A DNA stretch of 64,000 nt from Escherichia phage chee24: sequence record NC_047885.1. One strand, 5' to 3'. Every line of letters begins with the position of its first letter. The stretch's first letter is position 1. Under the pieces are notes generated by a model. That model was not told the origin of the DNA. It was given only the letters and a program-made list of their open reading frames with translations, and ran no database searches. The position numbers and the translations under genes were made by a program. This document shows, piece after piece, positions 28,287-40,986 of the stretch.

Positions 28287-28287
28287 A

Positions 28288-28494: not shown

Positions 28495-28787
28495 TATCGT
28501 ATCTCGTTTAGGTAAGAAGTATAATGGAATTTAGCTTCTCCAGTCTTATCTATTTCTACCTCAGTTCGTGGTACTTGACGAACTACATCATGAATCATCT
28601 TATAGCGAATGCCTTTAGCTGGTTCATGATCTTTTGGAAATACCTGTTTAACCGTTACTACTTTATACTCTTCACGCGGTGTTAACACAACTACTTGATC
28701 ACCTTCTTTGATTTTCCAAGAAGATGGAAATTCATAGGTATATCTTTGGCCACCAGTTTGGAATACTACAGAAAGATAACGCTTCAT
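28494..28787 (-). CDS. hypothetical protein (97 aa)
   Basis: ORF preceded by promoter at 28818-28846. Confidence 0.5.
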   Translation of the reverse strand: MKRYLSVVFQTGGQRYTYEFPSSWKIKEGDQVVVLTPREEYKVVTVKQVFPKDHEPAKGIRYKMIHDVVRQVPRTEVEIDKTGEAKFHYTSYLNEIR

Positions 28788-28817
28788 TTGGTTTCCCTCC
28801 CATTAATTTATATAAAT

Positions 28818-28846
28818 ATTATAACAAGAAATAAGAGAGAAGGCAA
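28818..28846 (-). promoter_or_regulatory. sigma70-type early promoter (-35 TTGCCT, -10 TATAAT)
   Basis: ATTATA-N17-AGGCAA; same 27-nt conserved core. Confidence 0.55.
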
Positions 28847-28861
28847 ATGAATTTTTAAATT

Positions 28862-28936
28862 TGGTGCTCCCACCAGGAATCGAACCCGGTTCAGATGCTT
28901 ACAAGGCAACTGCATCGCCAGCAATGCTTTAGGAGC
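28862..28936 (-). tRNA. tRNA-Thr (TGT)
   Basis: Hand-folded; T-loop GGTTCGATTCC; anticodon loop CTTGTAA. Confidence 0.65.
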
Positions 28937-29103
28937 GATAATCCCATTATTTCAATGGGATTTCTTTTTCAAATACAGGGGATTTATCTGACATTACTGT
29001 CATTGCCAACTGCTGAAGAAACTCGAAAGTTAGCTTTAAACGTTCTTCGCCTAATTCAATCTCAACGTATTTCTTTTGTTTGTCAACCTTTAATTTTAGG
29101 TTA

Positions 29104-29325
29104 TCAGCCATCTTCGGATTCTCGTTGCTTGGCTACTGCTAGCCAGTCTGGTAAAAGAAACTTAGTACGAAACTCTTCATACGTTTCTTCTGGGTAAAAG
29201 CTAAAACCTCCTTTCTCATCATTCAAGATAACAGAGCCGTCAGTTTGTTCATAAGCTCGGTATGTTTCCCCAATAATGATAACTCGTTTATCGGTACTTT
29301 TATTACGAAACTCAAAAACGTGCAT
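29104..29325 (-). CDS. hypothetical protein (73 aa)
   Basis: ORF between tRNA genes. Confidence 0.4.
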   Translation of the reverse strand: MHVFEFRNKSTDKRVIIIGETYRAYEQTDGSVILNDEKGGFSFYPEETYEEFRTKFLLPDWLAVAKQRESEDG

Positions 29326-29339
29326 AGAGATTCCTTATT

Positions 29340-29414
29340 TGGTGCGGGATACGAGAGTCGAACTCGTGTCTACTGGTTGGAAGCCAGTTATTCTAACCAC
29401 TGAACTAATCACGC
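29340..29414 (-). tRNA. tRNA-Gly (TCC)
   Basis: Hand-folded; anticodon arm ACTGG-CTTCCAA-CCAGT; T-loop TTCGACT. Confidence 0.65.
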
Positions 29415-29421
29415 ATTAATT

Positions 29422-29497
29422 TGGCTGGAGAAGGAGGAATCGAACCTACCATTAACGGAGTCAAAGGCCGTTGTGCTAACCGTTACACTACTCTCCA
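29422..29497 (-). tRNA. tRNA-Gln (TTG)
   Basis: Hand-folded; anticodon loop CTTTGAC; T-loop TTCGATT. Confidence 0.6.
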
Positions 29498-29503
29498 ATA
29501 ATT

Positions 29504-29579
29504 TGGCTGGGATGCCACGGATCGAACGTGGAACCTTCGGAGTCAGAGGCCGACGATCTGCCAATTGATCTACATCCCA
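29504..29579 (-). tRNA. tRNA-Gln (CTG)
   Basis: Hand-folded; anticodon loop CTCTGAC; perfect T-stem CCACG/CGTGG. Confidence 0.65.
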
Positions 29580-29592
29580 ATAATTCTTTACT

Positions 29593-29787
29593 CTACGGAA
29601 GTGGAGTAGTTGGCTCAGGTTCTTCAAGGCGCTTACCTTCATGATCTACTCGAATGACTCCGCATCCTTCGCAAACCACAACTGCACCATAACCTTCTTT
29701 GACTTCGGCTTCTGTAATCAGACCAGATAAGTCACCAGTATCTCTGCCCCACATATCAAGGGAGCATTGCTTGCAGAAATCAGCCAT
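29593..29787 (-). CDS. Cys-rich small protein (64 aa)
   Basis: ORF with CxxC..CxxC; between tRNA genes. Confidence 0.4.
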   Translation of the reverse strand: MADFCKQCSLDMWGRDTGDLSGLITEAEVKEGYGAVVVCEGCGVIRVDHEGKRLEEPEPTTPLP

Positions 29788-29811
29788 ATTTTATTTCCTA
29801 TTTAAGTTAAT

Positions 29812-29889
29812 TTGGGGTGGCTAGTGGAATTCGAATCCACATAGGCCTGATTCACAATCAGGATCATTAACCAATTATGATATAGCCAC
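29812..29889 (-). tRNA. tRNA-His (GTG)
   Basis: Hand-folded; anticodon arm CCTGA-TTGTGAA-TCAGG; extra 5' G typical of tRNA-His. Confidence 0.7.
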
Positions 29890-30117
29890 AATTGAAAACT
29901 CGCAGGGTTAGCGAAACCATCCTCAATTAGCATGTTCTAGAATACTAATCAAGTTATCTCCTATTGCACGCAGCTCAAGACGAGTACGAATTTTCAATTG
30001 TGGCGGCTCTCAGAAACTCTTCTATTCTAGCCCCAGAAGCTTACCCCCGAACGCATGTCGGGAAAGTCTTTCCAAGCGCATCAAATAGCACCGTTACACT
30101 TTGAGCCATTGATATAT

Positions 30118-30203
30118 CAAGGAACAGAAGGAGTTGAACCTTCACGAGATAGACCATTTATCTCAACCGCTTTTAAGGTATATTTCTAGGAGTGGATGTT
30201 CCT
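30118..30203 (-). other. tRNA-like element (perfect acceptor and T-arm, non-canonical D/anticodon region)
   Basis: Acceptor AGGAACA/TGTTCCT, T-arm GAAGG-TTCAACT-CCTTC, internal hairpin GAGATA..TATCTC; no standard anticodon loop found. Confidence 0.35.
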
Positions 30204-30257
30204 AGTAAACCTATTCGGCAGTCCCGTCTACCAATTCCGGCATATTCCAAGAATTTT

Positions 30258-30431
30258 TTATAAACCAGCAGAAGCCTCATTTAAAGCATCAACAATAGCT
30301 TCACGCTGGGTCATTCCGTACCCGGTGGAATCTAGGTGCGGCAAATAAGCCATCCACCCCTTATCTGTTTCATGAAGACATGCTTTAAATTTTTTACCAT
30401 CCTTCATTGTTACAGTAACTGTTTTGCTCAT
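30258..30431 (-). CDS. hypothetical small protein (57 aa)
   Basis: Hand-translated ORF with AAGGAAG RBS. Confidence 0.35.
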   Translation of the reverse strand: MSKTVTVTMKDGKKFKACLHETDKGWMAYLPHLDSTGYGMTQREAIVDALNEASAGL

Positions 30432-30451
30432 AAGACTTCCTTATAGTTAAT

Positions 30452-30541
30452 TGGCAGAAGATAATGGAGTCGAACCATCACCGTATCACTACAGCGGGCT
30501 GGTTTTCAAGACCAGTTACGTACCACTACGTCCTATCTTCT
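30452..30541 (-). tRNA. tRNA-Ser (TGA), class II
   Basis: 90 nt; anticodon arm CTGGT-CTTGAAA-ACCAG; long variable arm. Confidence 0.65.
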
Positions 30542-30554
30542 AGTATTTATTATA

Positions 30555-30902
30555 CTAATAGTCACTCGTACTAGTGAAATCTTCTACTTTTCCACAAATT
30601 TTACAAGTCCTACGATGATAGTAGGTAATTTTTACTTTAGACCAGCCATCGTGATCATTACCTAGGTTTTCTGTTACTCCCCAAGTATGGGAACACTCAT
30701 TTTCAATTTGCTTAGTAAGAGCGTTATAGCGAGTATAAAACTCCTCCTGGGCAATAGCAAACTCTTTCTGTAGTTTATCACGAGCAATAATAGCACGTTC
30801 CAGATATGTTAAATCGGGCATTCCAGCTTTTTCAGCAGCATCTATAACCTTATCTTCATCTAAAGATGCTAAAAACTCTAGAGCTTTATCTTTTGCTAAC
30901 AT
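30555..30902 (-). CDS. hypothetical protein (115 aa)
   Basis: ORF. Confidence 0.5.
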   Translation of the reverse strand: MLAKDKALEFLASLDEDKVIDAAEKAGMPDLTYLERAIIARDKLQKEFAIAQEEFYTRYNALTKQIENECSHTWGVTENLGNDHDGWSKVKITYYHRRTCKICGKVEDFTSTSDY

Positions 30903-30924
30903 TATTATTATTACCTCAAGTGTT

Positions 30925-31015
30925 TGGCGGAAGAGGAGAGATTTGAACTCTCAAGCCGTTTTACCAGTCAGCCACTTTCCAAGCGGTTTTCGTCGCCAAT
31001 TCGATTTGCTCTTCC
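30925..31015 (-). tRNA. tRNA-Ser (GGA), class II
   Basis: 91 nt; perfect T-arm GAGAG-TTCAAAT-CTCTC; anticodon loop TTGGAAA; long variable arm; resembles E. coli tRNA-Ser architecture. Confidence 0.55.
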
Positions 31016-31127
31016 AATAATAAGATGATGCCTCTATCACGCCAGACAGTTACGCCTCGCTGGGATTCGAACCCATTAAAACAGCTCAACCGAGATAGTA
31101 GGTTTAATTTACTCTGACCATCAAATT

Positions 31128-31204
31128 TGGTGCGTGACAAGGGATTCGAACCCTCAAAACCCGACTTCTAAGGACGGTATGTATGCCAATTCCATCAATC
31201 ACGC
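31128..31204 (-). tRNA. tRNA with anticodon TAG (Leu-type anticodon, class I shape)
   Basis: 77 nt; 7-bp acceptor, T-loop TTCGAAT, anticodon loop CTTAGAA, discriminator A; short variable arm. Confidence 0.5.
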
Positions 31205-31209
31205 GTATT

Positions 31210-31288
31210 TGGTGGAGGATAACGAATTCGAATCGTTCTGATGTCCTCGGTGCAAGCGAGGTGTCCACTCCCAGCAGACCCATCCCCC
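31210..31288 (-). tRNA. tRNA-Ala (TGC)
   Basis: Hand-folded; anticodon arm CCTCG-CTTGCAC-CGAGG; G3-U70 pair in acceptor stem. Confidence 0.65.
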
Positions 31289-31546
31289 AAAATCTTTAGT
31301 TTACTAAGGCTATTAGCTCGGCGTAACTACAGCACCTTCGCTTCGAGCGGAAGGAACTGCGTCATCTCGCAAACCCGATACACTATTCAGTTGCCATGAA
31401 TCTAGTGGACTAATCTAGAACTTCTCCCAAATCGTAGGGATCGTGCTTTTTGGCAGCCAGTCCTAGGTCGAGCTAATACCTTAGTGAACTATGATGAGGA
31501 TTTCTCCCCATCAATTTATATAAATATTATAACAAGAAATTAAGCA

Positions 31547-31906
31547 TTAAGCAAGTACATTTTTGCAGATTTCTTGTAATTCCTTTACATCACGAACGTA
31601 AAGGTAGTCTGAACTTCCAGAGTGCATACTTTGCATAAACACACCCTCATCTGGCGCAGTATCCTTCAGAGTAATTCCTAACCAAAAAGCGGCAAAACGA
31701 GGTGTTACCTCACCTTGACTTGCCTTGAATACATCGGCTTCTGTGATCTCCTGACCAGTAGAAAGTCCCATATACGGTACGTTCAGATCAATATCTTTGT
31801 AGAATTCAGCTAGGTCTTGTTCGAAGTCCCAACCTTTAGAGATAGCGAACTCTATTGTTACATGACCGAAATAGCCTTGAACCTTGCTTGATAATTGCAT
31901 TTGCAA
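31547..31906 (-). CDS. hypothetical protein (119 aa)
   Basis: ORF. Confidence 0.5.
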   Translation of the reverse strand: MQMQLSSKVQGYFGHVTIEFAISKGWDFEQDLAEFYKDIDLNVPYMGLSTGQEITEADVFKASQGEVTPRFAAFWLGITLKDTAPDEGVFMQSMHSGSSDYLYVRDVKELQEICKNVLA

Positions 31907-31925
31907 TTCCTTATTTTGAGTTAAT

Positions 31926-31999
31926 TGGTACTCGGTGATAGAATCGAACTATCGCAACCGCCGTGTAAAGACGGGGTTCTCCCATTAAACTAACCGAGC
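31926..31999 (-). tRNA. tRNA-Val (TAC)
   Basis: Hand-folded; perfect T-arm GATAG-TTCGATT-CTATC; anticodon loop TTTACAC. Confidence 0.6.
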
Positions 32000-32132
32000 A
32001 AAAGATTTGCTACTAAAAATGCTTCGAACAGAAATTCACAAAATCCCGCTAAAAACATACCTATTGTAAAATCGGCAGAAAATACATAGGAATCTTTTAT
32101 TTTCTGCTTCATTAAGTAAAACCAGATAGTCA

Positions 32133-32450
32133 TTAAAATCTCTCCATTCTAAAGCCAATGAAGTAAGGTGCATTACACGGAACATGCTTAAGATCTTTAA
32201 GAGTAATTTTACGTCCTAAGCGTCGTTCCATACAAGTGAAACATAGAACAATATCTTTGGGCTGCTCTTTTCTTATCTGATCCCAGACCCAATCTTCAAC
32301 CATACACATTTCATGGTATTGTTCACAGTCTCGACAATAATGACACTGATGTTCTGGTACTTTTTGATTTTTAATACACAGTTCAGTAAAGCGTTTTCCG
32401 GCTCTGCCAGACATTTCTGATATTGTTTCTAGAACTTTGTTAATATTCAT
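32133..32450 (-). CDS. Cys/His-rich protein (105 aa)
   Basis: ORF with several Cys/His clusters. Confidence 0.45.
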   Translation of the reverse strand: MNINKVLETISEMSGRAGKRFTELCIKNQKVPEHQCHYCRDCEQYHEMCMVEDWVWDQIRKEQPKDIVLCFTCMERRLGRKITLKDLKHVPCNAPYFIGFRMERF

Positions 32451-32467
32451 AACAAATTCCTTTAAAT

Positions 32468-32546
32468 TGGTAGATCGCCTGGGACTCGAACCCAGAACCT
32501 TCCGATTAAAAGTCGGATGCTACTAAACCTATTGAGCTAGCGACCT
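32468..32546 (-). tRNA. tRNA-Lys (TTT)
   Basis: Hand-folded; anticodon arm TCCGA-CTTTTAA-TCGGA; T-arm CTGGG-TTCGAGT-CCCAG. Confidence 0.7.
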
Positions 32547-32739
32547 ATTAGTAGCCATTATATACTTCTTTAATAGAATAGACTTTTAGGTAAGAATGAT
32601 TAATCCCAAACTCCGCCATTACTTCTTTTTCATTTTTTCCATAATGTGCAAGTAAGAATCTTGAGGTATTATTACCTAAACGTTTGTCACTTACTACTAA
32701 TCGAAATACTTTCATTTCGAAATCCTCTATTAAAAGGGA

Positions 32740-32813
32740 AGCGGGTGCAGGAATCGAACCTACCTCTTTCTAGCTTATGAGACTAGCGATCTCTACCAGA
32801 GATCTAACCCGCA
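32740..32813 (-). tRNA. tRNA-Met/Ile2 (CAT)
   Basis: Hand-folded; anticodon arm CTAGT-CTCATAA-GCTAG; CCA not encoded; acceptor register uncertain. Confidence 0.55.
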
Positions 32814-32819
32814 ATTGTT

Positions 32820-32895
32820 TGGTCAGTGCGGCAGGACTCGAACCTGCGACCCGAAGCATCCAAGGCTCCCACGCTACCAACTGCGCTACGCACTG
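32820..32895 (-). tRNA. tRNA-Pro (TGG)
   Basis: Hand-folded; perfect acceptor; D-arm GCGC-AGTTGGTA-GCGT; anticodon loop CTTGGAT. Confidence 0.7.
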
Positions 32896-33347
32896 TTAAT
32901 TTTGTTAACTCACTTTATAAGATATATTATACAGAGAATTAAGTAAAATAGCAAATGAATTTTTAATAAATTTACTTATTATGTAGGCCGCCTGGAGGCT
33001 ACCAACCCCACGGCTGACAAAGAAGTTTGCGAGACTTCTCTTAAAAGCCAGAATAGACCCGCCGGTCTATCGGAACCTACATAATAAGTAAACTTTATAG
33101 TGTCATTCTAGGCAGGACTCGAACCTGCTATCACTTGTGCGGACTTACGAGAACCATTCTTTCACTCGAATCGAACGAGCTTCTGCCCTCGCCAAGCTGG
33201 TTTCCCCCATCAACCACGCTAGAATGTTAGATTGTTTTCAGTGCAAGAGTCCGAGTCTTGGACACGACCGCTTCGCAAGTACATAGGCAGCTTATCATGA
33301 GTCAGCACTTCCGAATTGCTAGCTCCGTGTTCTGCACTGAAATTTTA

Positions 33348-33695
33348 TTAGTTTAATCGTAAAGTATTATCTACTTCACCATTAATTGTTCGGCATTCCT
33401 CTGGAATTGCCGGGGTGGCCTTGTATTCCCACCATTCAGCACCGTCATATTCCCCACGTTCTAGCCAAGTTCCATCGGCAAACCATACATTACCATAAAG
33501 TAATTGTCCGCCGTATCCAGAATCATATTCAAAGTCTAGGTTATTAAGAAAATCCTCAATATCTTCTTCTGTATAGCCTAAAGGTAATACCCAGACTTTT
33601 TTGTCCCCATAATACCCAAATTCTATTTTAATACACTTAACTTCAGAATTAGTATTTTTTAAGGCAAGTAACAGCTCTTCTTTAGCATTACGCAT
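33348..33695 (-). CDS. hypothetical protein (115 aa)
   Basis: ORF. Confidence 0.5.
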   Translation of the reverse strand: MRNAKEELLLALKNTNSEVKCIKIEFGYYGDKKVWVLPLGYTEEDIEDFLNNLDFEYDSGYGGQLLYGNVWFADGTWLERGEYDGAEWWEYKATPAIPEECRTINGEVDNTLRLN

Positions 33696-33720
33696 AATAT
33701 ATTCTCATACTGAATTAATT

Positions 33721-33797
33721 TGGCGCGACCGATGGGATTTGAACCCACATTCTCTCCCGTGACAGGGGAGTACCATTACCAAGCCAGCCCCGGTCGC
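33721..33797 (-). tRNA. tRNA-Asp (GTC)
   Basis: Hand-folded; anticodon arm CTCCC-CTGTCAC-GGGAG; T-loop TTCAAAT. Confidence 0.7.
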
Positions 33798-33806
33798 ATA
33801 ATTTAT

Positions 33807-33992
33807 TTACTCAGCTTTGAGTTTTTCAATAGCTGCATTAAGTTCTTTAAGAAACTCTTTTCGTACATTAAGACGATTGAGACTTACTAGTATATCATGT
33901 TTAAGTTCTTCGATGTATTTCTTCTCAACTTCAATATTGTTGATAGTACTATCACGATGAACTTCTAGCTGCGCAATCACATTCTTGGACAT
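33807..33992 (-). CDS. hypothetical protein (61 aa)
   Basis: ORF. Confidence 0.4.
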   Translation of the reverse strand: MSKNVIAQLEVHRDSTINNIEVEKKYIEELKHDILVSLNRLNVRKEFLKELNAAIEKLKAE

Positions 33993-34094
33993 GCTTGTTT
34001 CCTCAGTTATTAATGAAAATGGTATCTGTGGCTGAATTCGATGTCAGCAATGATAGCTGGTTGGCTACCGGTTTACTTAACTCTACACAGAATT

Positions 34095-34172
34095 TGGCGG
34101 TTCCTGCTGGATTCGAACCAGCAACCCTCAACTTAACAAGATGCCGCTCTAACCAATTAGAGCTAAGGAACC
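34095..34172 (-). tRNA. tRNA-Asn (GTT)
   Basis: Hand-folded; perfect T-arm GCTGG-TTCGAAT-CCAGC; anticodon loop TTGTTAA; anticodon stem imperfect. Confidence 0.55.
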
Positions 34173-34667
34173 ATATAAGTCAGAACTAGAGTTAATACGT
34201 CCTAGATATTTACTAAGATCCCTAGAATTTATACTAAACCACTCATGTTCTTTTAAATCTTTGAAATACTGGTGAATTAGTTTTTCACCTTTTCGTTTGT
34301 CAAACCAAAAAGACCAATGCTCTAACTTATAATCCCTATAGGGGGAATAAGTCTGATATTGAGCTAATCTCTCTTTTGGATTTTGACTCATACCTATTTT
34401 ATACTGATTTTTCCATGCAGGATTACTAATACAGTATACAAAACCTTCGGAAATAGGAAGTTTATTTTCCTGCTTAAACTTTATAAAGGAAAGTGCAGCA
34501 AGTTTTCTTGAATACATAGTATTCGTATTCTTTTTGGTATTACCATTGGTTCCTGAAAGATTTATATATTCTTCTATAAATCTCTGGATTAGTTCTGCGG
34601 TTATATAGAAGGGCTCATTAGTAACAACGCCTTTCTTTACCAAACTATCAAAAACTTTTGTATGCAC
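34149..34667 (-). CDS. T5orf172-domain (GIY-YIG-like) protein
   Basis: 172 aa; the Pfam T5orf172 family is named after a 172-aa ORF of phage T5; 3' end overlaps tRNA-Asn call by about 24 nt. Confidence 0.6.
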   Translation of the reverse strand: MHTKVFDSLVKKGVVTNEPFYITAELIQRFIEEYINLSGTNGNTKKNTNTMYSRKLAALSFIKFKQENKLPISEGFVYCISNPAWKNQYKIGMSQNPKERLAQYQTYSPYRDYKLEHWSFWFDKRKGEKLIHQYFKDLKEHEWFSINSRDLSKYLGRINSSSDLYGSLALIG

Positions 34668-34688
34668 TACTTCTTTCCTTTAGTAATT

Positions 34689-34764
34689 TGGACGACCGCA
34701 TGAGATTTGAACTCACATAAAAAGGATTTGCAATCCTTCGCCTAAGCCATTCAGCCAACGGTCG
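34689..34764 (-). tRNA. tRNA-Cys (GCA)
   Basis: Hand-folded; anticodon arm AAGGA-TTGCAAA-TCCTT; T-loop TTCAAAT. Confidence 0.7.
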
Positions 34765-34942
34765 ATTTATCTTGTTTTTCGAGATCTTCAAATTCTAAAT
34801 CATTGAAGTTCCCTAGAGTACGGGAGTAGAACCCGTCTCCTACGTCATAGCCTGATTTACCACAATCACACATTTTAAACTCTCTATAACGAGTGAAAAT
34901 ATGTTCAGAACCACAACACTTAAATTTAACTAACATTTTCAT
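34751..34942 (-). CDS. Cys-containing small protein (63 aa)
   Basis: ORF. Confidence 0.4.
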   Translation of the reverse strand: MKMLVKFKCCGSEHIFTRYREFKMCDCGKSGYDVGDGFYSRTLGNFNDLEFEDLEKQDKSTVG

Positions 34943-35181
34943 TTAACACGCTCCGGTAAATCTTCGAGTTTATATTGGGTAGCCACATTAGCAGCATCTA
35001 GTAACAAACCCATATGTTTAAGAATCCTGGTGATAGCCTCGCCTTCTGCTTCTTCTACAAAGCAACGTAGATTAACGAAGTCAATACCACCATCCATACC
35101 AGAGAAAATGTTTAGTAAGCGAAACATTACCAGCTTACGTTCTTTCAATTCTTGTTCTGTCATGTTGCTTCTCCAGTTCAA
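34939..35181 (-). CDS. hypothetical protein (80 aa)
   Basis: ORF. Confidence 0.45.
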   Translation of the reverse strand: MNWRSNMTEQELKERKLVMFRLLNIFSGMDGGIDFVNLRCFVEEAEGEAITRILKHMGLLLDAANVATQYKLEDLPERVK

Positions 35182-35213
35182 TTTATGTAATTATTATATA
35201 GAACTTTTGGAAA

Positions 35214-35501
35214 CTAAGCAACTACATTTTTTAGGAATTTGATCCCTTTCTTTTTCTTCTTATATTTCCACGTTAATGGATTCTGTCGATTATGAACGCT
35301 TGAGATCTTTGTCTCGTCAAAGTTCTTCAATATCATGTAATCACAGGATAATTGTTCTAGTGGAATGTGATCACCGTCAAAAGCGTATACATAAGGCTGT
35401 TGACTAGCACGATAATGATAGACTTTGTTAATTCTACGTTTCAGCGACTTATCCGCGCAGTAAATAAAGAAGTTTTCAGGATGCATCAGCATCTCCTTCA
35501 A
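35214..35501 (-). CDS. hypothetical protein (95 aa)
   Basis: ORF. Confidence 0.45.
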   Translation of the reverse strand: MKEMLMHPENFFIYCADKSLKRRINKVYHYRASQQPYVYAFDGDHIPLEQLSCDYMILKNFDETKISSVHNRQNPLTWKYKKKKKGIKFLKNVVA

Positions 35502-35503
35502 TT

Positions 35504-35578
35504 TGGTGCACCCTGTTCGTATCGAACGAACCTCTCAAGCTCTTCAGGCAAGCGCTAATCCATCTCAGCTAAAGGTGC
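35504..35578 (-). tRNA. tRNA-Phe (GAA)
   Basis: Hand-folded; anticodon loop CTGAAGA; T-arm GTTCG-TTCGATA-CGAAC; anticodon stem has mismatches. Confidence 0.5.
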
Positions 35579-35584
35579 AAATTT

Positions 35585-35660
35585 TGGCAAACCCACTAGG
35601 ACTCGAACCTAGACCGTACGGTTTTGGAGACCGACATGCTGTCCAGTAACACTCTAGGAA
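35585..35660 (-). other. tRNA-Trp-like 3' portion (anticodon CCA) lacking a pairing 5' acceptor strand
   Basis: T-arm CTAGG-TTCGAGT-CCTAG, CCA end and CGGTCTCCAAAACCG anticodon region resembling tRNA-Trp; no complementary 5' acceptor found. Confidence 0.35.
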
Positions 35661-35669
35661 TGCAGAAAT

Positions 35670-35763
35670 TGGTACACCCACGGAGAATTGAACTCCGATT
35701 CTCAGATTGAACTCCGATTCTCAGATTGAAATCCTGATGTCCTAGCCATTAGACGATAGGTGT
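35670..35763 (-). tRNA. tRNA-Glu (TTC) carrying a 19-nt tandem duplication
   Basis: 94 nt; acceptor, D-arm and anticodon arm TCAGG-ATTTCAA-TCTGA intact; unit ATTGAACTCCGATTCTCAG repeated at 35687-35705 and 35706-35724. Confidence 0.5.
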
Positions 35764-35771
35764 ATTAAATT

Positions 35772-35859
35772 TGGTGGGCGTTAATGGAGTCGAACCACTC
35801 GAGTCGCAATGACCAGGGATTTACAATCCCCTCCGCTACCACTTACGGAATAAACGCCC
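35772..35859 (-). tRNA. tRNA-Tyr (GTA), class II
   Basis: 88 nt; anticodon arm GGGGA-TTGTAAA-TCCCT; long variable arm; perfect acceptor. Confidence 0.65.
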
Positions 35860-35987
35860 ATATTTAGAAGCATTCAAATACTTGTTTAAACACTTTTAAA
35901 TATGTTTCCGAATTAGATAACTATTATACCAAGTTTTAAGGCACTGAGCAAGTCAAATTTTAAAGAACTTGCTCAGTGCTGTATTAG

Positions 35988-36263
35988 TTAGTCGAACTTA
36001 GGAGTGATAGTTAAGGAGAACGGAAGTTCGAAAACTTCTTCGCCCTCATTACTAACGGTAACTACACGACCTTTAAGTTCAGACATTAAAATATCAATAT
36101 CAGCTTTTGCATCTGGAGCCATGCCAGCTTCAATACATTTAGCTTTAACTTCCGGTAAAAGCTCTACGTTATAGAGATAGAGCCACTCAATCTCACCTTC
36201 CCAGTCTTCCCAGGATTTGCAGATTGCACTTTCAATACCAGTTGCTACAACACGATTTTGCAT
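35988..36263 (-). CDS. hypothetical protein (91 aa)
   Basis: ORF. Confidence 0.5.
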   Translation of the reverse strand: MQNRVVATGIESAICKSWEDWEGEIEWLYLYNVELLPEVKAKCIEAGMAPDAKADIDILMSELKGRVVTVSNEGEEVFELPFSLTITPKFD

Positions 36264-36353
36264 TAATTAACTCCTTCATCAATTTATATAACTATTATAC
36301 CAGAAATTTAAAGTAAAAGGCAAGTACATTTTTAAAAATTCTGTTTGGAGGAG

Positions 36354-36560
36354 CTAAACTCCAGATTTTTCGGCCAAGTCTAGACTAATAAGAGTTATAG
36401 CCATAATTGCTGCACCGTGTTCTTTTTCTCCGGTGTTTTTAGCAGAGTCTATAATATCCTTAATCTGTTCGTAATAACTTTTTACTTCTTGTTCAATGCC
36501 TGCCTCGGCTATCATGCCTTTAGCCATGAATCGTTGCATGGTAATTTCAGGATTAGCCAT
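36354..36560 (-). CDS. hypothetical protein (68 aa)
   Basis: ORF. Confidence 0.4.
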   Translation of the reverse strand: MANPEITMQRFMAKGMIAEAGIEQEVKSYYEQIKDIIDSAKNTGEKEHGAAIMAITLISLDLAEKSGV

Positions 36561-36735
36561 GTTGTTTCTCCAGTTTCATTTTTAATAGTTTACAGATGAA
36601 ATCAACGTCTTCATCTGTGCCTAAGTCTCTATCCTCAAGGGTCGCCTTGAAGTTTTTCGTCAATTCCATGAGGATGACTTCCCTAGAACGACGTGTTGGC
36701 GGAGGTGGATGTCTATACATCTTATTTCCTTAATT

Positions 36736-36812
36736 TGGTAGGGGTGGTGGGATTCGAACCCACAAAACCTGAATTTTAAGTCCAGTACCTATGCCAATTC
36801 GATTACACCCCC
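36736..36812 (-). tRNA. tRNA with anticodon TAA (Leu-type anticodon, class I shape)
   Basis: Hand-folded; acceptor GGGGGTG/CACCCCT, T-arm GTGGG-TTCGAAT-CCCAC, anticodon arm CTGGA-CTTAAAA-TTCAG, discriminator A. Confidence 0.5.
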
Positions 36813-37107
36813 ATGTAATCAGTTTATTAGTTGATACATATTATAGCCTAAAGAAAACCCTACTACTAATCCTACGAACCAACCAATATAATAATCTTTT
36901 AATTTCACGGGTGTCAACCTCGTTCAATATCTAGAGAAATACCACAGGTAGGATTAATGCCTGTGCCTTTGCACGTCGGACAAACCCAGATATTACAGAA
37001 TGTATCCCCTGCTTCTGCATCAGAACTTTTCCAACTCCTAGACAGTTAGGACAGGCACATTCTTCTAGCTCTTGCTTGAGTTCTTGAAACTTAGACATAT
37101 AGTTTCC

Positions 37108-37296
37108 TTATTCAATTACTTTTGAGGCTTCAAGGGAGTCGATATAGTGTACGTTTTCTACCATGATCATATAATCTGCCACTTTATCCATAGCCTGAGC
37201 TTCAGAGGTAGCCCTGGCTAACCTATATCCTTTTTTATATTCATCCGGGTATTCCCTATCTGGAATAAACACAACACAAACTAGGTATAGTTCCAC
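37108..37296 (-). CDS. hypothetical protein (62 aa)
   Basis: ORF. Confidence 0.4.
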   Translation of the reverse strand: MELYLVCVVFIPDREYPDEYKKGYRLARATSEAQAMDKVADYMIMVENVHYIDSLEASKVIE

Positions 37297-37317
37297 TTGT
37301 AACCTCTCTAATCAAGA

Positions 37318-37395
37318 TGGTGGCTCCCCGAGGATTCGAACCTACGTACCTTCCGGTTATGAGCCGGATGCTCATACCATATGAGCTTGAGAACC
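37318..37395 (-). tRNA. tRNA-Met/Ile2 (CAT)
   Basis: Hand-folded; perfect anticodon arm TCCGG-CTCATAA-CCGGA; D-arm GCTC..GAGC; T-stem weak. Confidence 0.6.
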
Positions 37396-37401
37396 AGAAT
37401 T

Positions 37402-37490
37402 TGGCGGAAGAAGTGGGAATCGAACCCACAAGGCTATATTTCAAACCGACAGATTAGCAATCTGCTGCAATACCGTTATGCTATTCTTCC
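37402..37490 (-). tRNA. tRNA-Ser (GCT), class II
   Basis: 89 nt; perfect acceptor GGAAGAA/TTCTTCC; anticodon arm GCAGA-TTGCTAA-TCTGT; long variable arm. Confidence 0.65.
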
Positions 37491-37511
37491 GAATTTATAA
37501 GATATATTATA

Positions 37512-38030
37512 TTAGAAATTTAGCTTCATAGCAAGAAAATTTTTCAAGTTTTCGGTAGACATCTCATCCACATCTACAGGAGAAACAAATCCATTTAATT
37601 GTCTAGCAAATTTTTCACCAGCAGGATCATTATCCCCAACAGCTACCAATTTAAAAGGTAGTAATTTCAATTGCTTTAACAACGCTTTTCCTGGAGAAGA
37701 ACCCAACATTGCCAGGGCTGGATAACCAGCGTTATGTAATGCTACGGCCTTAAATACAGATTCCGCAACCAATACTACTTTTTCATCCCCATTGAGAGTT
37801 TCCAGCCCCCATACACACTGTGTAGTAGAATAAGTAAAATACTTAGCTTCAAAAGGAGATTTACCATGACCTTTTGGAGCAGAAGGATTATAAGTCTGAT
37901 AGCCTCTCAACATCCCAGAGAAGTCATACAATGGGACTGTTAGCCATCCTTCCGGACTTAACCAGCAATGATATTTATCTGTATCAAACCCTCTAGATAA
38001 GAGATGTTCTGTTAGTTCATCAACAGTCAT
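37512..38030 (-). CDS. Toprim-like domain protein
   Basis: 172 aa; VVLVAES ... VAVGDNDPAGEKFARQL resembles Toprim acidic motifs; promoter at 38059-38087. Confidence 0.5.
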   Translation of the reverse strand: MTVDELTEHLLSRGFDTDKYHCWLSPEGWLTVPLYDFSGMLRGYQTYNPSAPKGHGKSPFEAKYFTYSTTQCVWGLETLNGDEKVVLVAESVFKAVALHNAGYPALAMLGSSPGKALLKQLKLLPFKLVAVGDNDPAGEKFARQLNGFVSPVDVDEMSTENLKNFLAMKLNF

Positions 38031-38058
38031 ATTAGATTCCTCTCAAATTTATAAATAT

Positions 38059-38087
38059 ATTATACAGAGGATTTAGCATTCAAGCAA
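38059..38087 (-). promoter_or_regulatory. sigma70-type early promoter (-35 TTGCTT, -10 TATAAT)
   Basis: ATTATA-N17-AAGCAA; drives 37512-38030. Confidence 0.6.
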
Positions 38088-38203
38088 TTGAATTTTTTAA
38101 CTTTTTAGAGGAAAATCACAGGATGCTTACGGGTAGCAGGTAAGTGGTCAGGACCGAAATTTGTGACCCCACTAAAAATCTGGGGTCAATTTTTAAAGAC
38201 CCC

Positions 38204-38232
38204 TTGACATTTTTGCCGGGGTAGTGTAAAGT
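38204..38232 (+). promoter_or_regulatory. sigma70 promoter (-35 TTGACA, 17-nt spacer, -10 TAAAGT)
   Basis: Consensus -35; preceded by overlapping GACCCC/GGGGTC hairpins. Confidence 0.55.
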
Positions 38233-38294
38233 ATATGTTATGGATGAGTGATCAAAGAGACACACATTTTCTATATACTAGGAGGTGTCAAAAA

Positions 38295-39275
38295 ATGACA
38301 GAAGAAGTAGCTAAGAGTCCTGAAACCGTCGCTAGCGTAGCAGCAGAACTGCATCGTCACGAGGAATCAGATAAGAAAAAGTGGGAGAAAGTCAAAGCCT
38401 ACGAAGAAGAACATCGTGAACACGATGATAAAGATGAAGAAGATGACGATGATGAACATTGTCATAAATATGGAAAACATAAAATGCAAGAACCAGTAAA
38501 CGTATTTACTAATGGCTTCCCTGGCATGGGTGCATTCCCAGCTAACGCAAGTGCTTTCGGTGGAGAAGGTATGGGTCTATTCGGAGCTATCCTAATCGGT
38601 GCTCTATTAACAGGCGGATTTGGTGGTTTTGGTGGTTTTGGCCGTGGTGCTGGCGTTGCCGCTGAAGGGACTGCTGTGGACGCGATCCTTTCTAACCAAG
38701 ATACTGCAAGTATTCTAGCTGCAATCAATACTACTCGTACAGAAGCTAACCAGGGCACTGGGGCTGTTCTAAGCGCAGTAAACGGTGTGGGAGCTGCTCA
38801 AGCTGCTAGCACTCAGCAAGTTCTGACTACTATCTACGGTACAGGTGCTAATCTGTCAAACCAGATCTGTGCTGAAACTCGTAACGTTATTCAGGGTCAG
38901 TTCGATCTTTCTCGTCAGATGGATCAATCTTTCGCTGCTAACCAGATCGCACGTGCTCAAGATAAGTTTGACTCTGCTCAGATTGCTTTCCAGCAGTCTA
39001 TTCAGACCAATAACCAGTTTGCCGCTGTTCAGGCTCAGATGTGTGCTAACCAGAATGCTATAGAGCGTCAGCTTGCTGAATGTTGCTGTGAACTTCAGAC
39101 TGCGATCGCTGGTGTAACTACTGCGCGTATCCAGGACGAACTGAATGAATGCCGTCTGCGTGAAGCAATCGCTCAAGGTAGTGGTGCTAACGGTCAGGTA
39201 ATTAACCAAATCGCTGTAAGTCTTGGTGCTATCACTCAGACTCTGGCTGGTCTGCAGGCTAAACTGCCGGCTTAA
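38295..39275 (+). CDS. low-complexity protein: acidic N-terminus, Gly-rich hydrophobic segment, Gln/Ala-rich C-terminus
   Basis: 326 aa from ATG with AGGAGG RBS inside track ORF 38235-39275; consensus promoter at 38204-38232. Confidence 0.6.
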   Translation: MTEEVAKSPETVASVAAELHRHEESDKKKWEKVKAYEEEHREHDDKDEEDDDDEHCHKYGKHKMQEPVNVFTNGFPGMGAFPANASAFGGEGMGLFGAILIGALLTGGFGGFGGFGRGAGVAAEGTAVDAILSNQDTASILAAINTTRTEANQGTGAVLSAVNGVGAAQAASTQQVLTTIYGTGANLSNQICAETRNVIQGQFDLSRQMDQSFAANQIARAQDKFDSAQIAFQQSIQTNNQFAAVQAQMCANQNAIERQLAECCCELQTAIAGVTTARIQDELNECRLREAIAQGSGANGQVINQIAVSLGAITQTLAGLQAKLPA

Positions 39276-39296
39276 AATTAAGGGGAGGAGCCCATT

Positions 39297-39713
39297 ATGA
39301 GTAAATATGGTTTTGTAAACAACGGATTTAATCAACAAATGGGCTCCCAGCAGCCCGTTCCGGGTCTGGATAATCCTTACCTACAACAGTTGCAACAGCG
39401 TTTAGCAGAAGCGCAACAGATGCAGCAACAACTCCAGCAAAACCCTGGAAGTGTGAGTCCTATGCAAATGATGCAGCAAATGAGCGGGCAGTCGCAAATG
39501 CCTCAACAAATGCAGCAACAGGTGCCTCAGCAGCAAGTTCAGCAACAAACCCAACAACCGCAGGTTTCTGCGGAAGGACAGGCAGTACTAGCTCTTTTCG
39601 AAGATTTCGCAAAGACAGAGGATGGGAAACAGCTTGTATCACTTATGGGTAAGTTTAATAGCTTCTGCCAAAGCCAGGTTGCAAAAGCTCAAAATGGTGA
39701 TAATAACTCCTAA
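39297..39713 (+). CDS. glutamine-rich protein (138 aa)
   Basis: ORF with GGGGAGGAG RBS; second gene of rightward operon. Confidence 0.55.
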   Translation: MSKYGFVNNGFNQQMGSQQPVPGLDNPYLQQLQQRLAEAQQMQQQLQQNPGSVSPMQMMQQMSGQSQMPQQMQQQVPQQQVQQQTQQPQVSAEGQAVLALFEDFAKTEDGKQLVSLMGKFNSFCQSQVAKAQNGDNNS

Positions 39714-39722
39714 GGAGGAATT

Positions 39723-39917
39723 ATGTGTTGCAGAAAATCTGTTTCGTGCTGCCCAATGCCTGTAGCACGTTGTTGCTCTCCAGCAATGTTTACACAAATA
39801 CCGGCGTTCAATCCCTTTGCCTTTAAGCCTACTCTTATCCTGCCCCCTAGAGTAGATTTTCAGTCAAGATTGGCCTCCCGTATGGGTGGTTGCTGTAACA
39901 AGAGTATATGGTTCTAA
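39723..39917 (+). CDS. Cys-rich small protein (64 aa)
   Basis: ORF with AAGGAGG RBS; contains 8 Cys including CC pairs; followed by hairpin terminators. Confidence 0.5.
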   Translation: MCCRKSVSCCPMPVARCCSPAMFTQIPAFNPFAFKPTLILPPRVDFQSRLASRMGGCCNKSIWF

Positions 39918-39933
39918 AGAACCAATAATAAAA

Positions 39934-39968
39934 AGCCCCTAGTCGAAAGACTTAGGGGCTTTTCTCTT
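39934..39968 (+). terminator. rho-independent terminator (possibly bidirectional)
   Basis: Hairpin AGCCCCTAGTC..GACTTAGGGGCT flanked by AAAA upstream and TTTT downstream. Confidence 0.65.
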
Positions 39969-39984
39969 ATCTTAAATACAGAAA

Positions 39985-40016
39985 AGCCCTGCGCTCTCCA
40001 GGGAACGCAGGGCTTA
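39985..40016 (-). terminator. rho-independent terminator for leftward SPFH gene
   Basis: Hairpin AGCCCTGCG..CGCAGGGCT with T-run on minus strand. Confidence 0.6.
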
Positions 40017-40038
40017 CTTCGAATATTACGTGTGGGTA

Positions 40039-40986
40039 TTACTTGTTACGCATATCCATAATCATCTGGCCATCATAACCAGTGCCAACCACAGTCTGCG
40101 GTACACCACCTTGATACTTCTGAGCACGAATCATTTCAACTTCTAGTTGCTTCCAGCGAATCATCTCAGGAGTAATGGTACGTTGCAGAGCAGCGTTAGC
40201 TTCAGCTTCTTTCTTAGCTGCATACAGTTTAGCATCTGCATCACGTTCGTTTGCAATAGCTTGGTTGTTACGAGCTTCACGATCTGCTTCTGCTTGTTTA
40301 ACCTTCTGCTGTGCTTCTTGTTCAACGCGAGCTAATTCAGCTTTCGCAGCATTAACTTGTTCTTCGCGAACTTTGGTATTCTGTACCTGTTCCATAATTA
40401 CCGGTGGCAATGTAATATCCTGAAGGAACACTTGCTTAACTGTGTAACCATAGGGGCGTGCATACTCTTCAACTTCCTGTTGAATTGCAGTTTGCAATTG
40501 TGCTTGAATTTTAGCATCAAACAAATCTTGTGCTTTAGGTACAGACTTACCAAACTCACGAATAGTAGACAGTAATTTTTCAGTTACATACTTATCTAGA
40601 GCCTGATCTTGAGTACCCGCATTAATACGGTTGATCGGTGCCTTAGAACCATCAAACTGCAACATAACAGTCAGGTCAACAGTGGATTTAAACTTATCCT
40701 GGCTAGGAACCTGAAGTTTATCTAATTTTACAGCAATATCTTTTGTACTAAAAGTATCGAAAGATGCAAATGGGTTTACAAGATGGAAACCAGGTAATAC
40801 TGGGTTAGGATCTACTTTACCTAGAAATGTTTGGGTTTTAACCGTACCATCAGAAACAATAGTATATGAATTAAAAGCTAGGATTAAACCTGCTAAACCA
40901 ACTACAGCACCAATACTCCAACGTTTAATAGTGCGAATTACTTTTTGCTCAGAAGTCAGTTCTTTCATATTTTTAGTATTAGACAT
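40039..40986 (-). CDS. SPFH/band-7 (prohibitin/HflC-like) membrane protein
   Basis: 315 aa; N-terminal TM helix, SPFH-like core, charged coiled-coil C-terminus. Confidence 0.6.
   Translation of the reverse strand: MSNTKNMKELTSEQKVIRTIKRWSIGAVVGLAGLILAFNSYTIVSDGTVKTQTFLGKVDPNPVLPGFHLVNPFASFDTFSTKDIAVKLDKLQVPSQDKFKSTVDLTVMLQFDGSKAPINRINAGTQDQALDKYVTEKLLSTIREFGKSVPKAQDLFDAKIQAQLQTAIQQEVEEYARPYGYTVKQVFLQDITLPPVIMEQVQNTKVREEQVNAAKAELARVEQEAQQKVKQAEADREARNNQAIANERDADAKLYAAKKEAEANAALQRTITPEMIRWKQLEVEMIRAQKYQGGVPQTVVGTGYDGQMIMDMRNK

What the first reader, a model, noticed from the sequence alone, without database searches (positions are those of the whole stretch)
34149..34667. T5orf172-type (GIY-YIG-like) protein embedded in the tRNA array
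The 172-aa ORF matches the namesake T5orf172 domain family and sits amid tRNA genes, overlapping the tRNA-Asn 5' end. The location is reminiscent of freestanding homing-endonuclease-like genes, so it may be mobile or a site-specific nuclease.
Basis: partly seen in the sequence, partly recalled or inferred. Interest (0 to 1): 0.4.

Follow-up and report, generated by a model that had tools for sequence, protein, structure and literature searches.

The report
Mobile nuclease gene wedged between phage tRNAs
This is the T5-phage gene that very probably gave the "T5orf172" nuclease family its name, a small, dispensable, selfish-looking nuclease gene that fills the gap between two tRNA genes and travels with its own version of tRNA-Asn; the kind is known, but its tight link to tRNA genes has not been described in the papers I found.

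Summary
Window 34149..34667 (-) is a real 172-aa gene with a GTG start and a Shine-Dalgarno site. It matches Pfam MUG113 (1e-15) and T5orf172 (6e-12). Its last 24 nt lie inside tRNA-Asn.

The window is T5-like phage pork27. The gene is the 98%-identical ortholog of T5.069, almost certainly the eponymous "T5 ORF172".

It has two domains: a three-helix N-domain and a GIY-YIG-fold nuclease with conserved catalytic-type residues. It is under strong purifying selection (dN/dS about 0.07).

It is not universal. About 78 of about 425 related phage records carry it. Close relatives differ by a clean 509-bp presence/absence with no target duplication.

In sampled genomes it sits upstream of one tRNA-Asn allele (T1), never the alternative (T2). 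Recombination scars exist: a dead T1/T2 hybrid tRNA in EH7 and a chimeric gene in PK7.

Homologs sharing the N-domain lie inside tRNA arrays. In 15 of 18 cases they stop within -24..+4 nt of the next tRNA.

Best reading: a freestanding homing-endonuclease-type gene specialised for tRNA spacers, analogous to T4 SegB. Cleavage and homing are untested. It is a member of a known kind, of modest interest.

The parts
34149..34667 (-). ORF172 coding sequence (172 aa; P27_0066; ortholog of T5.069 and BF23 'ORF trn 2.8')
   Evidence: It is 98% identical to T5.069 and shares its 90% cluster. dN/dS is about 0.07.
34668..34688 (-). 21-nt leader AATTACTAAAGGAAAGAAGTA with a Shine-Dalgarno site; it fills the whole gap to the CCA end of tRNA-Cys
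   Evidence: A similar leader (CCA-AATTA(C)TAA(A)GGA...) precedes paralogs at other inter-tRNA sites.
34452..34667 (-). N-terminal domain (residues 1-72): three helices, one Cys in the whole protein and no Zn-finger motif; proposed target-recognition module
34188..34445 (-). T5orf172/MUG113 (GIY-YIG-fold) nuclease domain, residues 75-160
34095..34172 (-). tRNA-Asn(GUU), allele 'T1' (78 nt), found downstream of the gene in every sampled carrier
   Evidence: (55.4 bits)
34149..34172 (-). ORF/tRNA overlap: the last 8 codons (..SLALIG*) and the TAG stop are supplied by the acceptor and D-arm of tRNA-Asn
34689..34764 (-). tRNA-Cys(GCA), the upstream boundary of the insertion
34176..34684 (-). 509-bp segment absent from 'empty T1' genomes (smaug, S124), where tRNA-Cys and T1 tRNA-Asn lie 6-7 nt apart by the sequences; no target-site duplication
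   Evidence: The boundary is ambiguous by 1-3 nt.
34120..34674 (-). Cassette (ORF172 plus the 5' two-thirds of T1 tRNA-Asn) replaced in ORF-less T2 genomes by 0-152 nt of spacer plus a non-homologous 83-nt tRNA-Asn
34109..34119 (-). GGTTCGAATCC T-loop motif of tRNA-Asn: the point where homology with T2 genomes resumes and where the EH7 hybrid crossover lies
   Evidence: The same motif is the core of the T4 SegB recognition site (PMC2330249).

Best explanation
ORF172 is a freestanding homing-endonuclease-type gene of the T5orf172 branch of the GIY-YIG superfamily, and it belongs to a small two-domain subfamily that colonises the spacers between phage tRNA genes.

Shown:
- The gene occupies the whole tRNA-Cys/tRNA-Asn spacer. 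It brings its own 21-nt leader with a Shine-Dalgarno site and borrows its stop codon from tRNA-Asn.
- The protein is a three-helix N-domain followed by a GIY-YIG-fold nuclease domain with the family's invariant Tyr, Gly, Arg and Glu residues.
- The gene is sporadic among close relatives. It is a clean 509-bp indel, and it is linked to one of two non-homologous tRNA-Asn alleles.

Inferred:
- It is transcribed with the early tRNA operon.
- During mixed infection the protein cuts the gene-less allele at or near the Cys/Asn tRNA junction. By analogy with T4 SegB, the cut may involve the T-loop motif GGTTCGAATCC.
- Recombinational repair from the gene-carrying genome then copies ORF172, often together with its T1 tRNA-Asn.
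- The carrier is protected either because the insertion splits the site or because T1 differs from T2.

A side effect is that tRNA alleles hitchhike with the gene and that paralogous copies promote rearrangements of the tRNA array.
For: 2. A functional gene: dN/dS about 0.07-0.10.
3. Sporadic distribution: 78 records carry a copy at 90% identity or more, against 134 records with T1 and 291 with T2 tRNA-Asn. It is present and absent within both Tequintavirus and Epseptimavirus. IrisVonRoten lacks it despite 98.5% and 96.7% identical flanks.
4. Clean insertion against the smaug and S124 empty sites.
5. Linkage: 9 distinct ORF172+ genomes all carry T1; 13 T2 genomes have a Cys-to-Asn spacing of only 84 or 229 nt, too short for the gene; none has T2 plus ORF172. 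A 41%-identical homolog also sits upstream of T1 in Sugarland.
6. Scars: EH7 has ORF172 followed by a T1/T2 hybrid joined in the T-loop, which ARAGORN no longer calls a tRNA. The PK7 gene is a chimera of the S124-type paralog N-domain (100% identical) and the ORF172 nuclease domain (99%), with four tRNAs deleted.
7. Site preference: 15 of 18 family members at more than 10 different inter-tRNA sites stop within -24..+4 nt of the next same-strand tRNA. Distant hits that share only the T5orf172 domain have no tRNAs nearby.
8. Dispensable: T5.069 knock-down is scored 'Not Fit' (PMC11879866 supplement).
9. Precedents: T5orf172 homing-endonuclease genes are reported as abundant in T5-like phages (PMC10448857). 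T4 SegB is a GIY-YIG homing endonuclease in a tRNA cluster whose site contains GGTTCRANTCC and whose major cut lies in the T2L tRNA-Asn gene (PMC2330249).
Against: No cleavage or co-infection data exist for this protein or any close homolog, and I found none in the literature searched. The whole tRNA region is mosaic: neighbouring genes range from 68% to 96% identity between the same genome pairs. The higher identity of ORF172 (93% against about 80% backbone) is therefore not specific proof of horizontal spread. T-loop microhomology alone could generate the hybrids. Strong purifying selection is more than a purely selfish element needs and could indicate a benefit to the phage. The N-domain has no recognisable DNA-binding fold. 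The domain order is the reverse of the Seg/I-TevI enzymes. The T1 linkage could be plain physical linkage, because the ORF overlaps that tRNA.
Confidence: 0.65

Rival explanations
1. It is an ordinary accessory gene inherited vertically, perhaps a nuclease useful to the phage (host-DNA degradation or exclusion of competitors). On this view its patchy distribution and the hybrid or chimeric junctions come from deletions and general recombination between repeated tRNA motifs and paralogs, not from self-promoted homing.
For: The whole array is a mosaic of allelic cassettes with breakpoints at tRNA borders. tRNA-Glu, for example, also has two alleles, each found with and without a paralog. L019 shows a Tyr/Asn hybrid tRNA joined at the same T-loop with no ORF172 involved. 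dN/dS of about 0.07 fits a gene selected for a phage function.
Against: A precise 509-bp indel separates the gene-carrying and empty T1 genomes. The gene is present and absent among near-identical backbones in two genera. Knock-down has no fitness effect. The whole subfamily lands exactly between tRNAs at many different sites, which deletion alone does not explain.
Confidence: 0.2
2. It is a domesticated, non-cutting DNA-binding protein (a CapR-like regulator) that uses the T5orf172 fold to bind DNA, in line with the older InterPro label 'T5 Orf172 DNA-binding'.
For: UniRef and InterPro name the domain 'DNA-binding'. The literature treats PLE CapR as related to ICP1 T5orf172 homing-endonuclease genes and as involved in PLE's parasitism of ICP1 (PMC10448857; the bioRxiv title calls it a domesticated endonuclease).
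Against: The GIY/YIG-type Tyr, Gly, Arg and Glu positions are invariant across the family. The gene lacks the CapR/DUF723/DUF4397 Zn-finger modules. It is sporadic and dispensable, which is unlike a regulator.
Confidence: 0.07
3. It is a tRNA- or RNA-directed nuclease paired with a resistant tRNA. The protein would cleave host or rival tRNA-Asn, or pre-tRNA, while the linked T1 tRNA-Asn escapes.
For: There is a tight, ancient linkage of family members to a particular downstream tRNA allele. T1 has an unusual anticodon stem with two non-Watson-Crick pairs.
Against: To my knowledge, characterised GIY-YIG enzymes act on DNA, and every nuclease among the structural neighbours is a DNA nuclease. 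Paralogs precede many different tRNA species. The anticodon loops of T1 and T2 are identical, TTGTTAA.
Confidence: 0.04

Closest known systems
Phage T4 SegB, a freestanding GIY-YIG homing endonuclease in the T4 tRNA cluster (PMC2330249)
   Same: Both are freestanding nuclease genes of the GIY-YIG superfamily sitting between tRNA genes of a lytic coliphage and absent from close relatives. SegB recognises a site containing the T-loop motif GGTTCRANTCC, cuts mainly in the T2L tRNA-Asn gene, and drags neighbouring tRNA genes along. Here the cassette boundary and the EH7 crossover lie at GGTTCGAATCC of tRNA-Asn.
   Different: There is no detectable sequence relationship. The canonical GIY-YIG Pfam model is below its cut-off. 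The domain order is reversed: by my recollection of the Seg/I-TevI architecture, SegB has the nuclease at the N-terminus and the DNA-binding part at the C-terminus. Activity is demonstrated for SegB but not here.
T5orf172 homing-endonuclease genes of ICP1 and other phages (Barth, Dunham and Seed 2023, PMC10448857), including the nuclease Odn
   Same: They share the nuclease domain family. They are reported as enriched in T5-like phages, are modular (binding domain plus T5orf172), and recombine between paralogs. The PK7 chimera is an example of that behaviour.
   Different: Those genes mostly carry CapR, DUF723 or DUF4397 Zn-finger DNA-binding repeats and sit near terminase, nrd or capsid genes. 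This subfamily has a Cys-free three-helix N-domain and sits in tRNA spacers.
Phage T5 HNH endonucleases in the tRNA region: hegA (labelled F-TflIV in the BF23 record), hegC and hegD
   Same: They occupy the same tRNA array with the same layout: hegC and hegD also end inside the next tRNA gene. They are variably present; the pork27 window lacks them.
   Different: They use an unrelated HNH catalytic fold. There is no similarity to the ORF172 N-domain. From my recollection of Akulenko et al. 2004, cited in PMC10644984, the F-Tfl enzymes were shown to be site-specific nickases.
SLX1/HIGLE and other GIY-YIG nucleases (closest solved structures)

Membership tests
Pfam T5orf172 (PF10544) / MUG113 (PF13455), GIY-YIG superfamily | Profile score above the curated gathering threshold | tested here: met
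   T5orf172 46.4 bits (cut-off 20); MUG113 58.4 bits (cut-off 22.3)
Pfam T5orf172 (PF10544) / MUG113 (PF13455), GIY-YIG superfamily | GIY-YIG alpha/beta core fold | tested here: met
Pfam T5orf172 (PF10544) / MUG113 (PF13455), GIY-YIG superfamily | Conserved catalytic-type residues: Tyr of 'GIY', Gly of 'YIG', Arg, and metal-binding Glu | tested here: met
   G75, Y78, K90, G92, R100, E128 and E142 are invariant in 26 homologs. The second Tyr (Y89) is not invariant. Which Glu binds the metal is not resolved.
Pfam T5orf172 (PF10544) / MUG113 (PF13455), GIY-YIG superfamily | Being the eponymous T5 ORF172 | tested here: inconclusive
   It is 98% identical to T5.069, which is 172 aa and which UniRef names after the domain. 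The other 172-aa ORF of the region is Toprim-like. The naming paper (Iyer et al. 2002) could not be opened.
Canonical GIY-YIG catalytic domain (PF01541; Seg/I-TevI type) | Profile score above threshold, and an N-terminal nuclease followed by a C-terminal DNA-binding domain | tested here: not met
   13.6 bits against a cut-off of 22.6. Here the nuclease domain is C-terminal.
Freestanding homing endonuclease genes (functional class) | Presence/absence polymorphism at one locus among close relatives, with sharp boundaries and no transposon-like ends | tested here: met
Freestanding homing endonuclease genes (functional class) | Footprints of gene conversion or co-conversion of flanking markers | tested here: inconclusive
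   T1 linkage, the EH7 hybrid tRNA and the PK7 chimera fit this. The region is mosaic as a whole, however, and T-loop microhomology could act alone.
Freestanding homing endonuclease genes (functional class) | Site-specific cleavage of the gene-less allele and resistance of the carrier allele | not testable with these tools
   Needs purified protein and the empty-site DNAs.
Freestanding homing endonuclease genes (functional class) | Nuclease-dependent over-inheritance in mixed infection | not testable with these tools
   Needs phage crosses.
T5orf172 homing-endonuclease genes sensu Barth et al. 2023 | CapR/DUF723/DUF4397-type Zn-finger DNA-binding domain(s) fused to T5orf172 | tested here: not met
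   No such Pfam hit. There is one Cys in the whole protein. The N-domain is a three-helix bundle.

The most novel reading that the evidence does not exclude
The ORF172 subfamily (three-helix N-domain plus T5orf172 nuclease, about 97 clusters at 50% identity) may be a dedicated tRNA-gene-targeting lineage of homing endonucleases. Each lineage would be tied to a particular downstream tRNA allele, so it would drive allele replacement (T1 replacing T2 tRNA-Asn), hybrid dead tRNAs, and deletions in the tRNA arrays of Demerecviridae. Selfish nucleases would then shape the tRNA repertoires that phages are reported to use against host tRNA-cleaving defences. A second layer is also possible. Because the stop codon lies inside the next tRNA, RNase P processing would remove it from the mRNA, which would restrict expression of the nuclease to unprocessed transcripts.
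Probability: 0.3. Interest if true: 0.55.

Novelty: new member of a known kind. Interest (0 to 1): 0.35.

Why it matters
If the homing model holds, the founding member of the T5orf172 family would get its first functional assignment. T5-like phages would gain a counterpart of T4 SegB built from a different nuclease branch and a different recognition domain, which would be convergent targeting of tRNA genes. It would also explain why tRNA arrays of T5-like phages are so mosaic, and it would show that tRNA alleles can spread by hitchhiking with a selfish nuclease. That matters for interpreting phage tRNA repertoires as anti-defence tools, and for phylogenetics and engineering of T5-like therapeutic phages. 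As it stands, this is a well-supported but expected annotation refinement.

Tried and rejected
- A sequence search of the PDB with the family profile found nothing meaningful: one chance hit to a stathmin-like repeat, E = 2.1.
- The N-domain shows no similarity to the T5 HNH endonucleases hegA, hegC or hegD.
- The promoter/terminator scan was no better than shuffled sequence.
- NCBIfam had no hit. PADLOC gave only weak domain-level hits to candidate PDC-S57. PHROGs places the protein in phrog_5032, 'unknown function'.
- I looked for decayed ORF172 remnants in the 152-nt Cys-Asn spacer of IrisVonRoten and slur09 and in the 390-nt region upstream of T1 in My1. None were found.
- I tried to show recent horizontal transfer from identity and dS contrasts. 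ORF172 is 93% identical (dS 0.35) against about 80% for the backbone (dS 0.85 for one neighbouring gene), but another neighbour is 94-96% identical, so the test is not specific in this mosaic region.
- I asked whether T1 is a pseudo-tRNA. It is not: 55 bits in Rfam against 58 for T2.
- The paper that named the domain could not be opened, and literature searches found no study of this gene.
- A protein-only scan of IMG/VR found only near-identical orthologs until the family alignment was used.

Full report
**Identity of the window and the gene.** The 3-kb neighbourhood is 100% identical to Bacteriophage T5-like pork27 (MF431731; Tequintavirus chee24) and its four sister isolates. The ORF at 34149..34667 (-) is annotated there as hypothetical protein P27_0066. 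The same 519-bp CDS sits at the same place in three other phages:
- T5: T5.069, YP_006897.
- BF23: 'ORF trn 2.8', with an annotated ribosome-binding site.
- DaisyDussoix, where the BASEL authors call it 'putative homing endonuclease'.

The window protein and T5.069 fall in one 90%-identity cluster. UniRef names them 'Bacteriophage T5 Orf172 DNA-binding domain-containing protein'. T5.069 is 172 aa. The only other 172-aa ORF in the region (37512..38030) is Toprim-like. This gene is therefore almost certainly the eponymous T5 ORF172, although I could not open the naming paper.

**Checking the observation.** The ORF, its length, its GTG start behind AAGGAAAG and its TAG stop are as described. Pfam gives MUG113 (1.1e-15) and T5orf172 (6e-12), both above threshold. 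The canonical GIY-YIG model is below threshold. ARAGORN and Rfam place tRNA-Asn at 34095..34172, so the last 24 nt of the ORF are tRNA sequence. tRNA-Cys ends 21 nt upstream of the start codon. The gene is clearly coding:
- dN/dS is 0.025/0.345 against Epseptimavirus SB10, and 0.008/0.078 against T5.
- Homologs down to 35% identity conserve both halves of the protein.

The N-domain alone folds confidently (pLDDT 82) but matches only generic helical bundles. The protein has a single Cys, so it lacks the CapR/DUF723/DUF4397 Zn fingers described as typical of T5orf172 homing-endonuclease genes (PMC10448857). A profile of the N-domain finds just 97 clusters at 50% identity among 1.84 billion proteins, and in the listed hits the domain lies at or near the N-terminus. 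All 10 sampled hits carry T5orf172/MUG113 behind it. This is a compact two-domain family (phrog_5032, function unknown).

**Distribution.** In the phage collection, 78 records carry a copy at 90% identity or more. By comparison, 134 records carry the tRNA-Asn allele seen here (T1) and 291 carry a different one (T2).
- Carriers occur in Tequintavirus (T5, BF23, DaisyDussoix, pork27) and in Epseptimavirus (SB10, EH7).
- Non-carriers occur in both genera too: IrisVonRoten, slur09, GreteKellenberger, S124 and smaug.
- IrisVonRoten is 98.5% and 96.7% identical to the window on either side of the locus, yet lacks the gene.

**Anatomy of the polymorphism.** Five configurations occur between tRNA-Cys and tRNA-Asn:
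1. Cys, a 7-nt spacer, T2 (GreteKellenberger).
2. Cys, a 152-nt spacer, T2 (IrisVonRoten, slur09).
3. Cys, a 6-7-nt spacer by the sequences, T1 (S124, smaug).
4. Cys, ORF172, T1 (window, T5, BF23 and others).
5. Cys, ORF172, T1/T2 hybrid (EH7).

T1 (78 nt) and T2 (83 nt, long variable loop) are not alignable except for the T-loop GGTTCGAATCC and the 3' end. Both are good tRNAs (55 and 58 bits).

Configuration 4 differs from configuration 3 by a clean 509-bp insertion (34176..34684) with no target duplication. Against T2 genomes, homology stops 14 nt past the CCA end of tRNA-Cys and resumes exactly at the T-loop motif, 34109..34119.

Among sampled loci, 9 distinct ORF172+ genomes all have T1. 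Thirteen T2 genomes have a Cys-to-Asn spacing of only 84 or 229 nt, too short for the gene. None has ORF172 with an intact T2.

In Sugarland a 41%-identical homolog again sits directly upstream of T1, but it follows tRNA-Tyr; 39 Klebsiella phage records carry T1. Pectobacterium phage My1 has a 100%-identical T1 and no ORF.

**Scars.** In EH7 the T1 5' part is joined to the T2 3' part within the T-loop. The acceptor and T stems no longer pair, and ARAGORN finds no tRNA. In PK7 the gene is a chimera. Residues 1-73 are 100% identical to the S124-type paralog that normally lies between tRNA-Tyr and tRNA-Glu. Residues 74-172 are 99% identical to ORF172. The Glu, Trp, Phe and Cys tRNAs in between are gone. 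Both are what recombination initiated at or between such genes would leave. PK7 also shows that the two domains are exchangeable modules, as reported for other T5orf172 homing-endonuclease genes.

**A tRNA-spacer specialist.** I used the family alignment to pull loci from IMG/VR and exact-match contigs from metagenomes. Eighteen family members at more than ten different inter-tRNA positions were examined, upstream of Asn, Asp, Glu, Lys, Pro, Tyr and Leu tRNAs.
- In 15 of them the stop codon lies between 24 nt inside and 4 nt before the next same-strand tRNA.
- Where an upstream tRNA is adjacent, the leader is usually only 14-25 nt.
- Stops often use conserved tRNA positions, namely U8-A9-G10 or the D-loop TAG/TAA.
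- Several paralogs share the leader CCA-AATTA(C)TAA(A)GGA.
- Distant hits that share only the nuclease domain have no tRNA within 1.5 kb.
- T5's HNH genes hegC and hegD show the same 'end inside the next tRNA' layout.
- At the Tyr-Glu site, two paralog types are each tied to one of two tRNA-Glu alleles, and both alleles also occur empty.

**Mechanism.** The best-supported explanation is a freestanding homing-endonuclease-type gene. T4 SegB is a close functional analogue. It is a GIY-YIG enzyme encoded in the T4 tRNA cluster, it recognises a 27-bp site whose conserved core is GGTTCRANTCC, it cuts mainly in the T2L tRNA-Asn gene, and it carries the surrounding tRNA genes into the recipient (PMC2330249).

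Here the following are shown: the gene architecture, the conserved catalytic-type residues, the sporadic distribution, the sharp boundaries, the allele linkage and the scars. The following are inferred: expression from the early tRNA operon (T5 annotates promoter P14b upstream), cleavage of the gene-less allele, repair-mediated copying, and self-immunity. Knock-down of T5.069 has no fitness effect in single infection (PMC11879866 supplement), as expected for a selfish or competition-only gene.

**Caveats.** No biochemical or genetic data exist for this protein. The tRNA region is mosaic throughout, with identity between one genome pair ranging from 68% to 96% across neighbouring genes, so identity contrasts are not decisive. 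Another hybrid tRNA (L019, a Tyr 5' part joined to a T2 Asn 3' part at the same T-loop) shows that T-loop microhomology recombines without ORF172. Strong purifying selection leaves room for a benefit to the phage. I therefore give the homing model 0.65, a vertically inherited accessory nuclease 0.2, a domesticated binder 0.07 and an RNA-directed role 0.04.

**Novelty.** The domain family, its GIY-YIG affiliation and the abundance of T5orf172 homing-endonuclease genes in T5-like phages are published, and one annotation already says 'putative homing endonuclease'. In the papers I could search I did not find any of the following described:
- the distinct three-helix N-domain subfamily;
- its near-exclusive placement in tRNA spacers, with stops inside the next tRNA;
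- the ORF172/T1 tRNA-Asn linkage;
- the EH7 and PK7 scars.

This makes the gene an uncharacterised member of a known kind, with a plausible but untested extension: nuclease-driven turnover of phage tRNA alleles, and possibly expression coupled to tRNA processing.

Noticed in passing
window 35670..35763 (-): The tRNA-Glu of this phage is 94 nt because it carries a 19-nt tandem duplication (ATCTGAGAATCGGAGTTCA twice), spanning the 3' anticodon stem to the 5' T-arm, relative to the 75-nt allele of IrisVonRoten. Rfam still scores it 47.5 bits, but function is doubtful.
   Followed up: partly
window 34095..34172 (-): The T1 tRNA-Asn has two non-Watson-Crick pairs (G.A and U.U) in its 5-bp anticodon stem. 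The alternative T2 allele of ORF-less phages is 83 nt with a variable loop of about 12 nt, unusual for tRNA-Asn. T1 is 100% identical in Pectobacterium phage My1, which belongs to a different subfamily.
   Followed up: partly
L096 (Salmonella phage PK7, PV611632) 1177..1698: A chimeric T5orf172 gene: the N-domain is 100% identical to the S124 Tyr-Glu-site paralog and the nuclease domain is 99% identical to ORF172. tRNA-Glu, Trp, Phe and Cys are deleted between tRNA-Tyr and tRNA-Asn.
   Followed up: yes
L093 (Salmonella phage EH7, OR413347) about 1501..1578: A hybrid tRNA-Asn (T1 5' part, T2 3' part, crossover in GGTTCGAATCC) downstream of ORF172. ARAGORN no longer recognises it as a tRNA.
   Followed up: yes
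L019 (IMGVR_UViG_2974666860_000001), upstream of position 1897 (-): Another hybrid: a tRNA-Tyr-like 5' part (anticodon GTA) fused at the T-loop to the 3' end of T2 tRNA-Asn. This suggests the T-loop is a general recombination hotspot in these arrays.
   Followed up: no
window 37512..38030 (-): A second ORF of exactly 172 aa in the same array. It is Toprim-like (Pfam Toprim_2, 3e-5), corresponds to the CDS at the same position in T5 (T5.076, annotated 'DNA primase'), and is unrelated to T5orf172.
   Followed up: yes
L002 (phage T5) 2398..2979 and 4023..4607; window 28000..42000: T5's HNH endonuclease genes hegD and hegC also end inside the next tRNA gene (23 and 14 nt of overlap). The pork27 window lacks hegA, hegC and hegD and carries other small ORFs at those places, so ORF172 is the only recognisable nuclease gene in its array.
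   Followed up: partly
L005 (IrisVonRoten) 2958..3109; L006 (slur09), same position: A 152-nt, GC-richer, strongly folding spacer (about -43 kcal/mol for 165 nt) lies between tRNA-Cys and T2 tRNA-Asn in some ORF-less phages. It has no Rfam match and no ORF172 remnant. It may be one of the small stable RNAs known from T5.
   Followed up: partly
L100 (Logan SRR23622338 contig) 392..748 and 1501..1980: One metagenomic phage contig carries two T5orf172 genes in the same tRNA array. One stops 10 nt inside a tRNA-Asn and the other ends flush with a tRNA-Lys.
   Followed up: no
window 33807..33992 (-) and 34751..34942 (-): Small conserved array ORFs hit domains of unknown function: DUF7337 (4.8e-30) and, weakly, DUF7695. 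The 34751..34942 ORF also overlaps the 5' end of tRNA-Cys by 14 nt.
   Followed up: no
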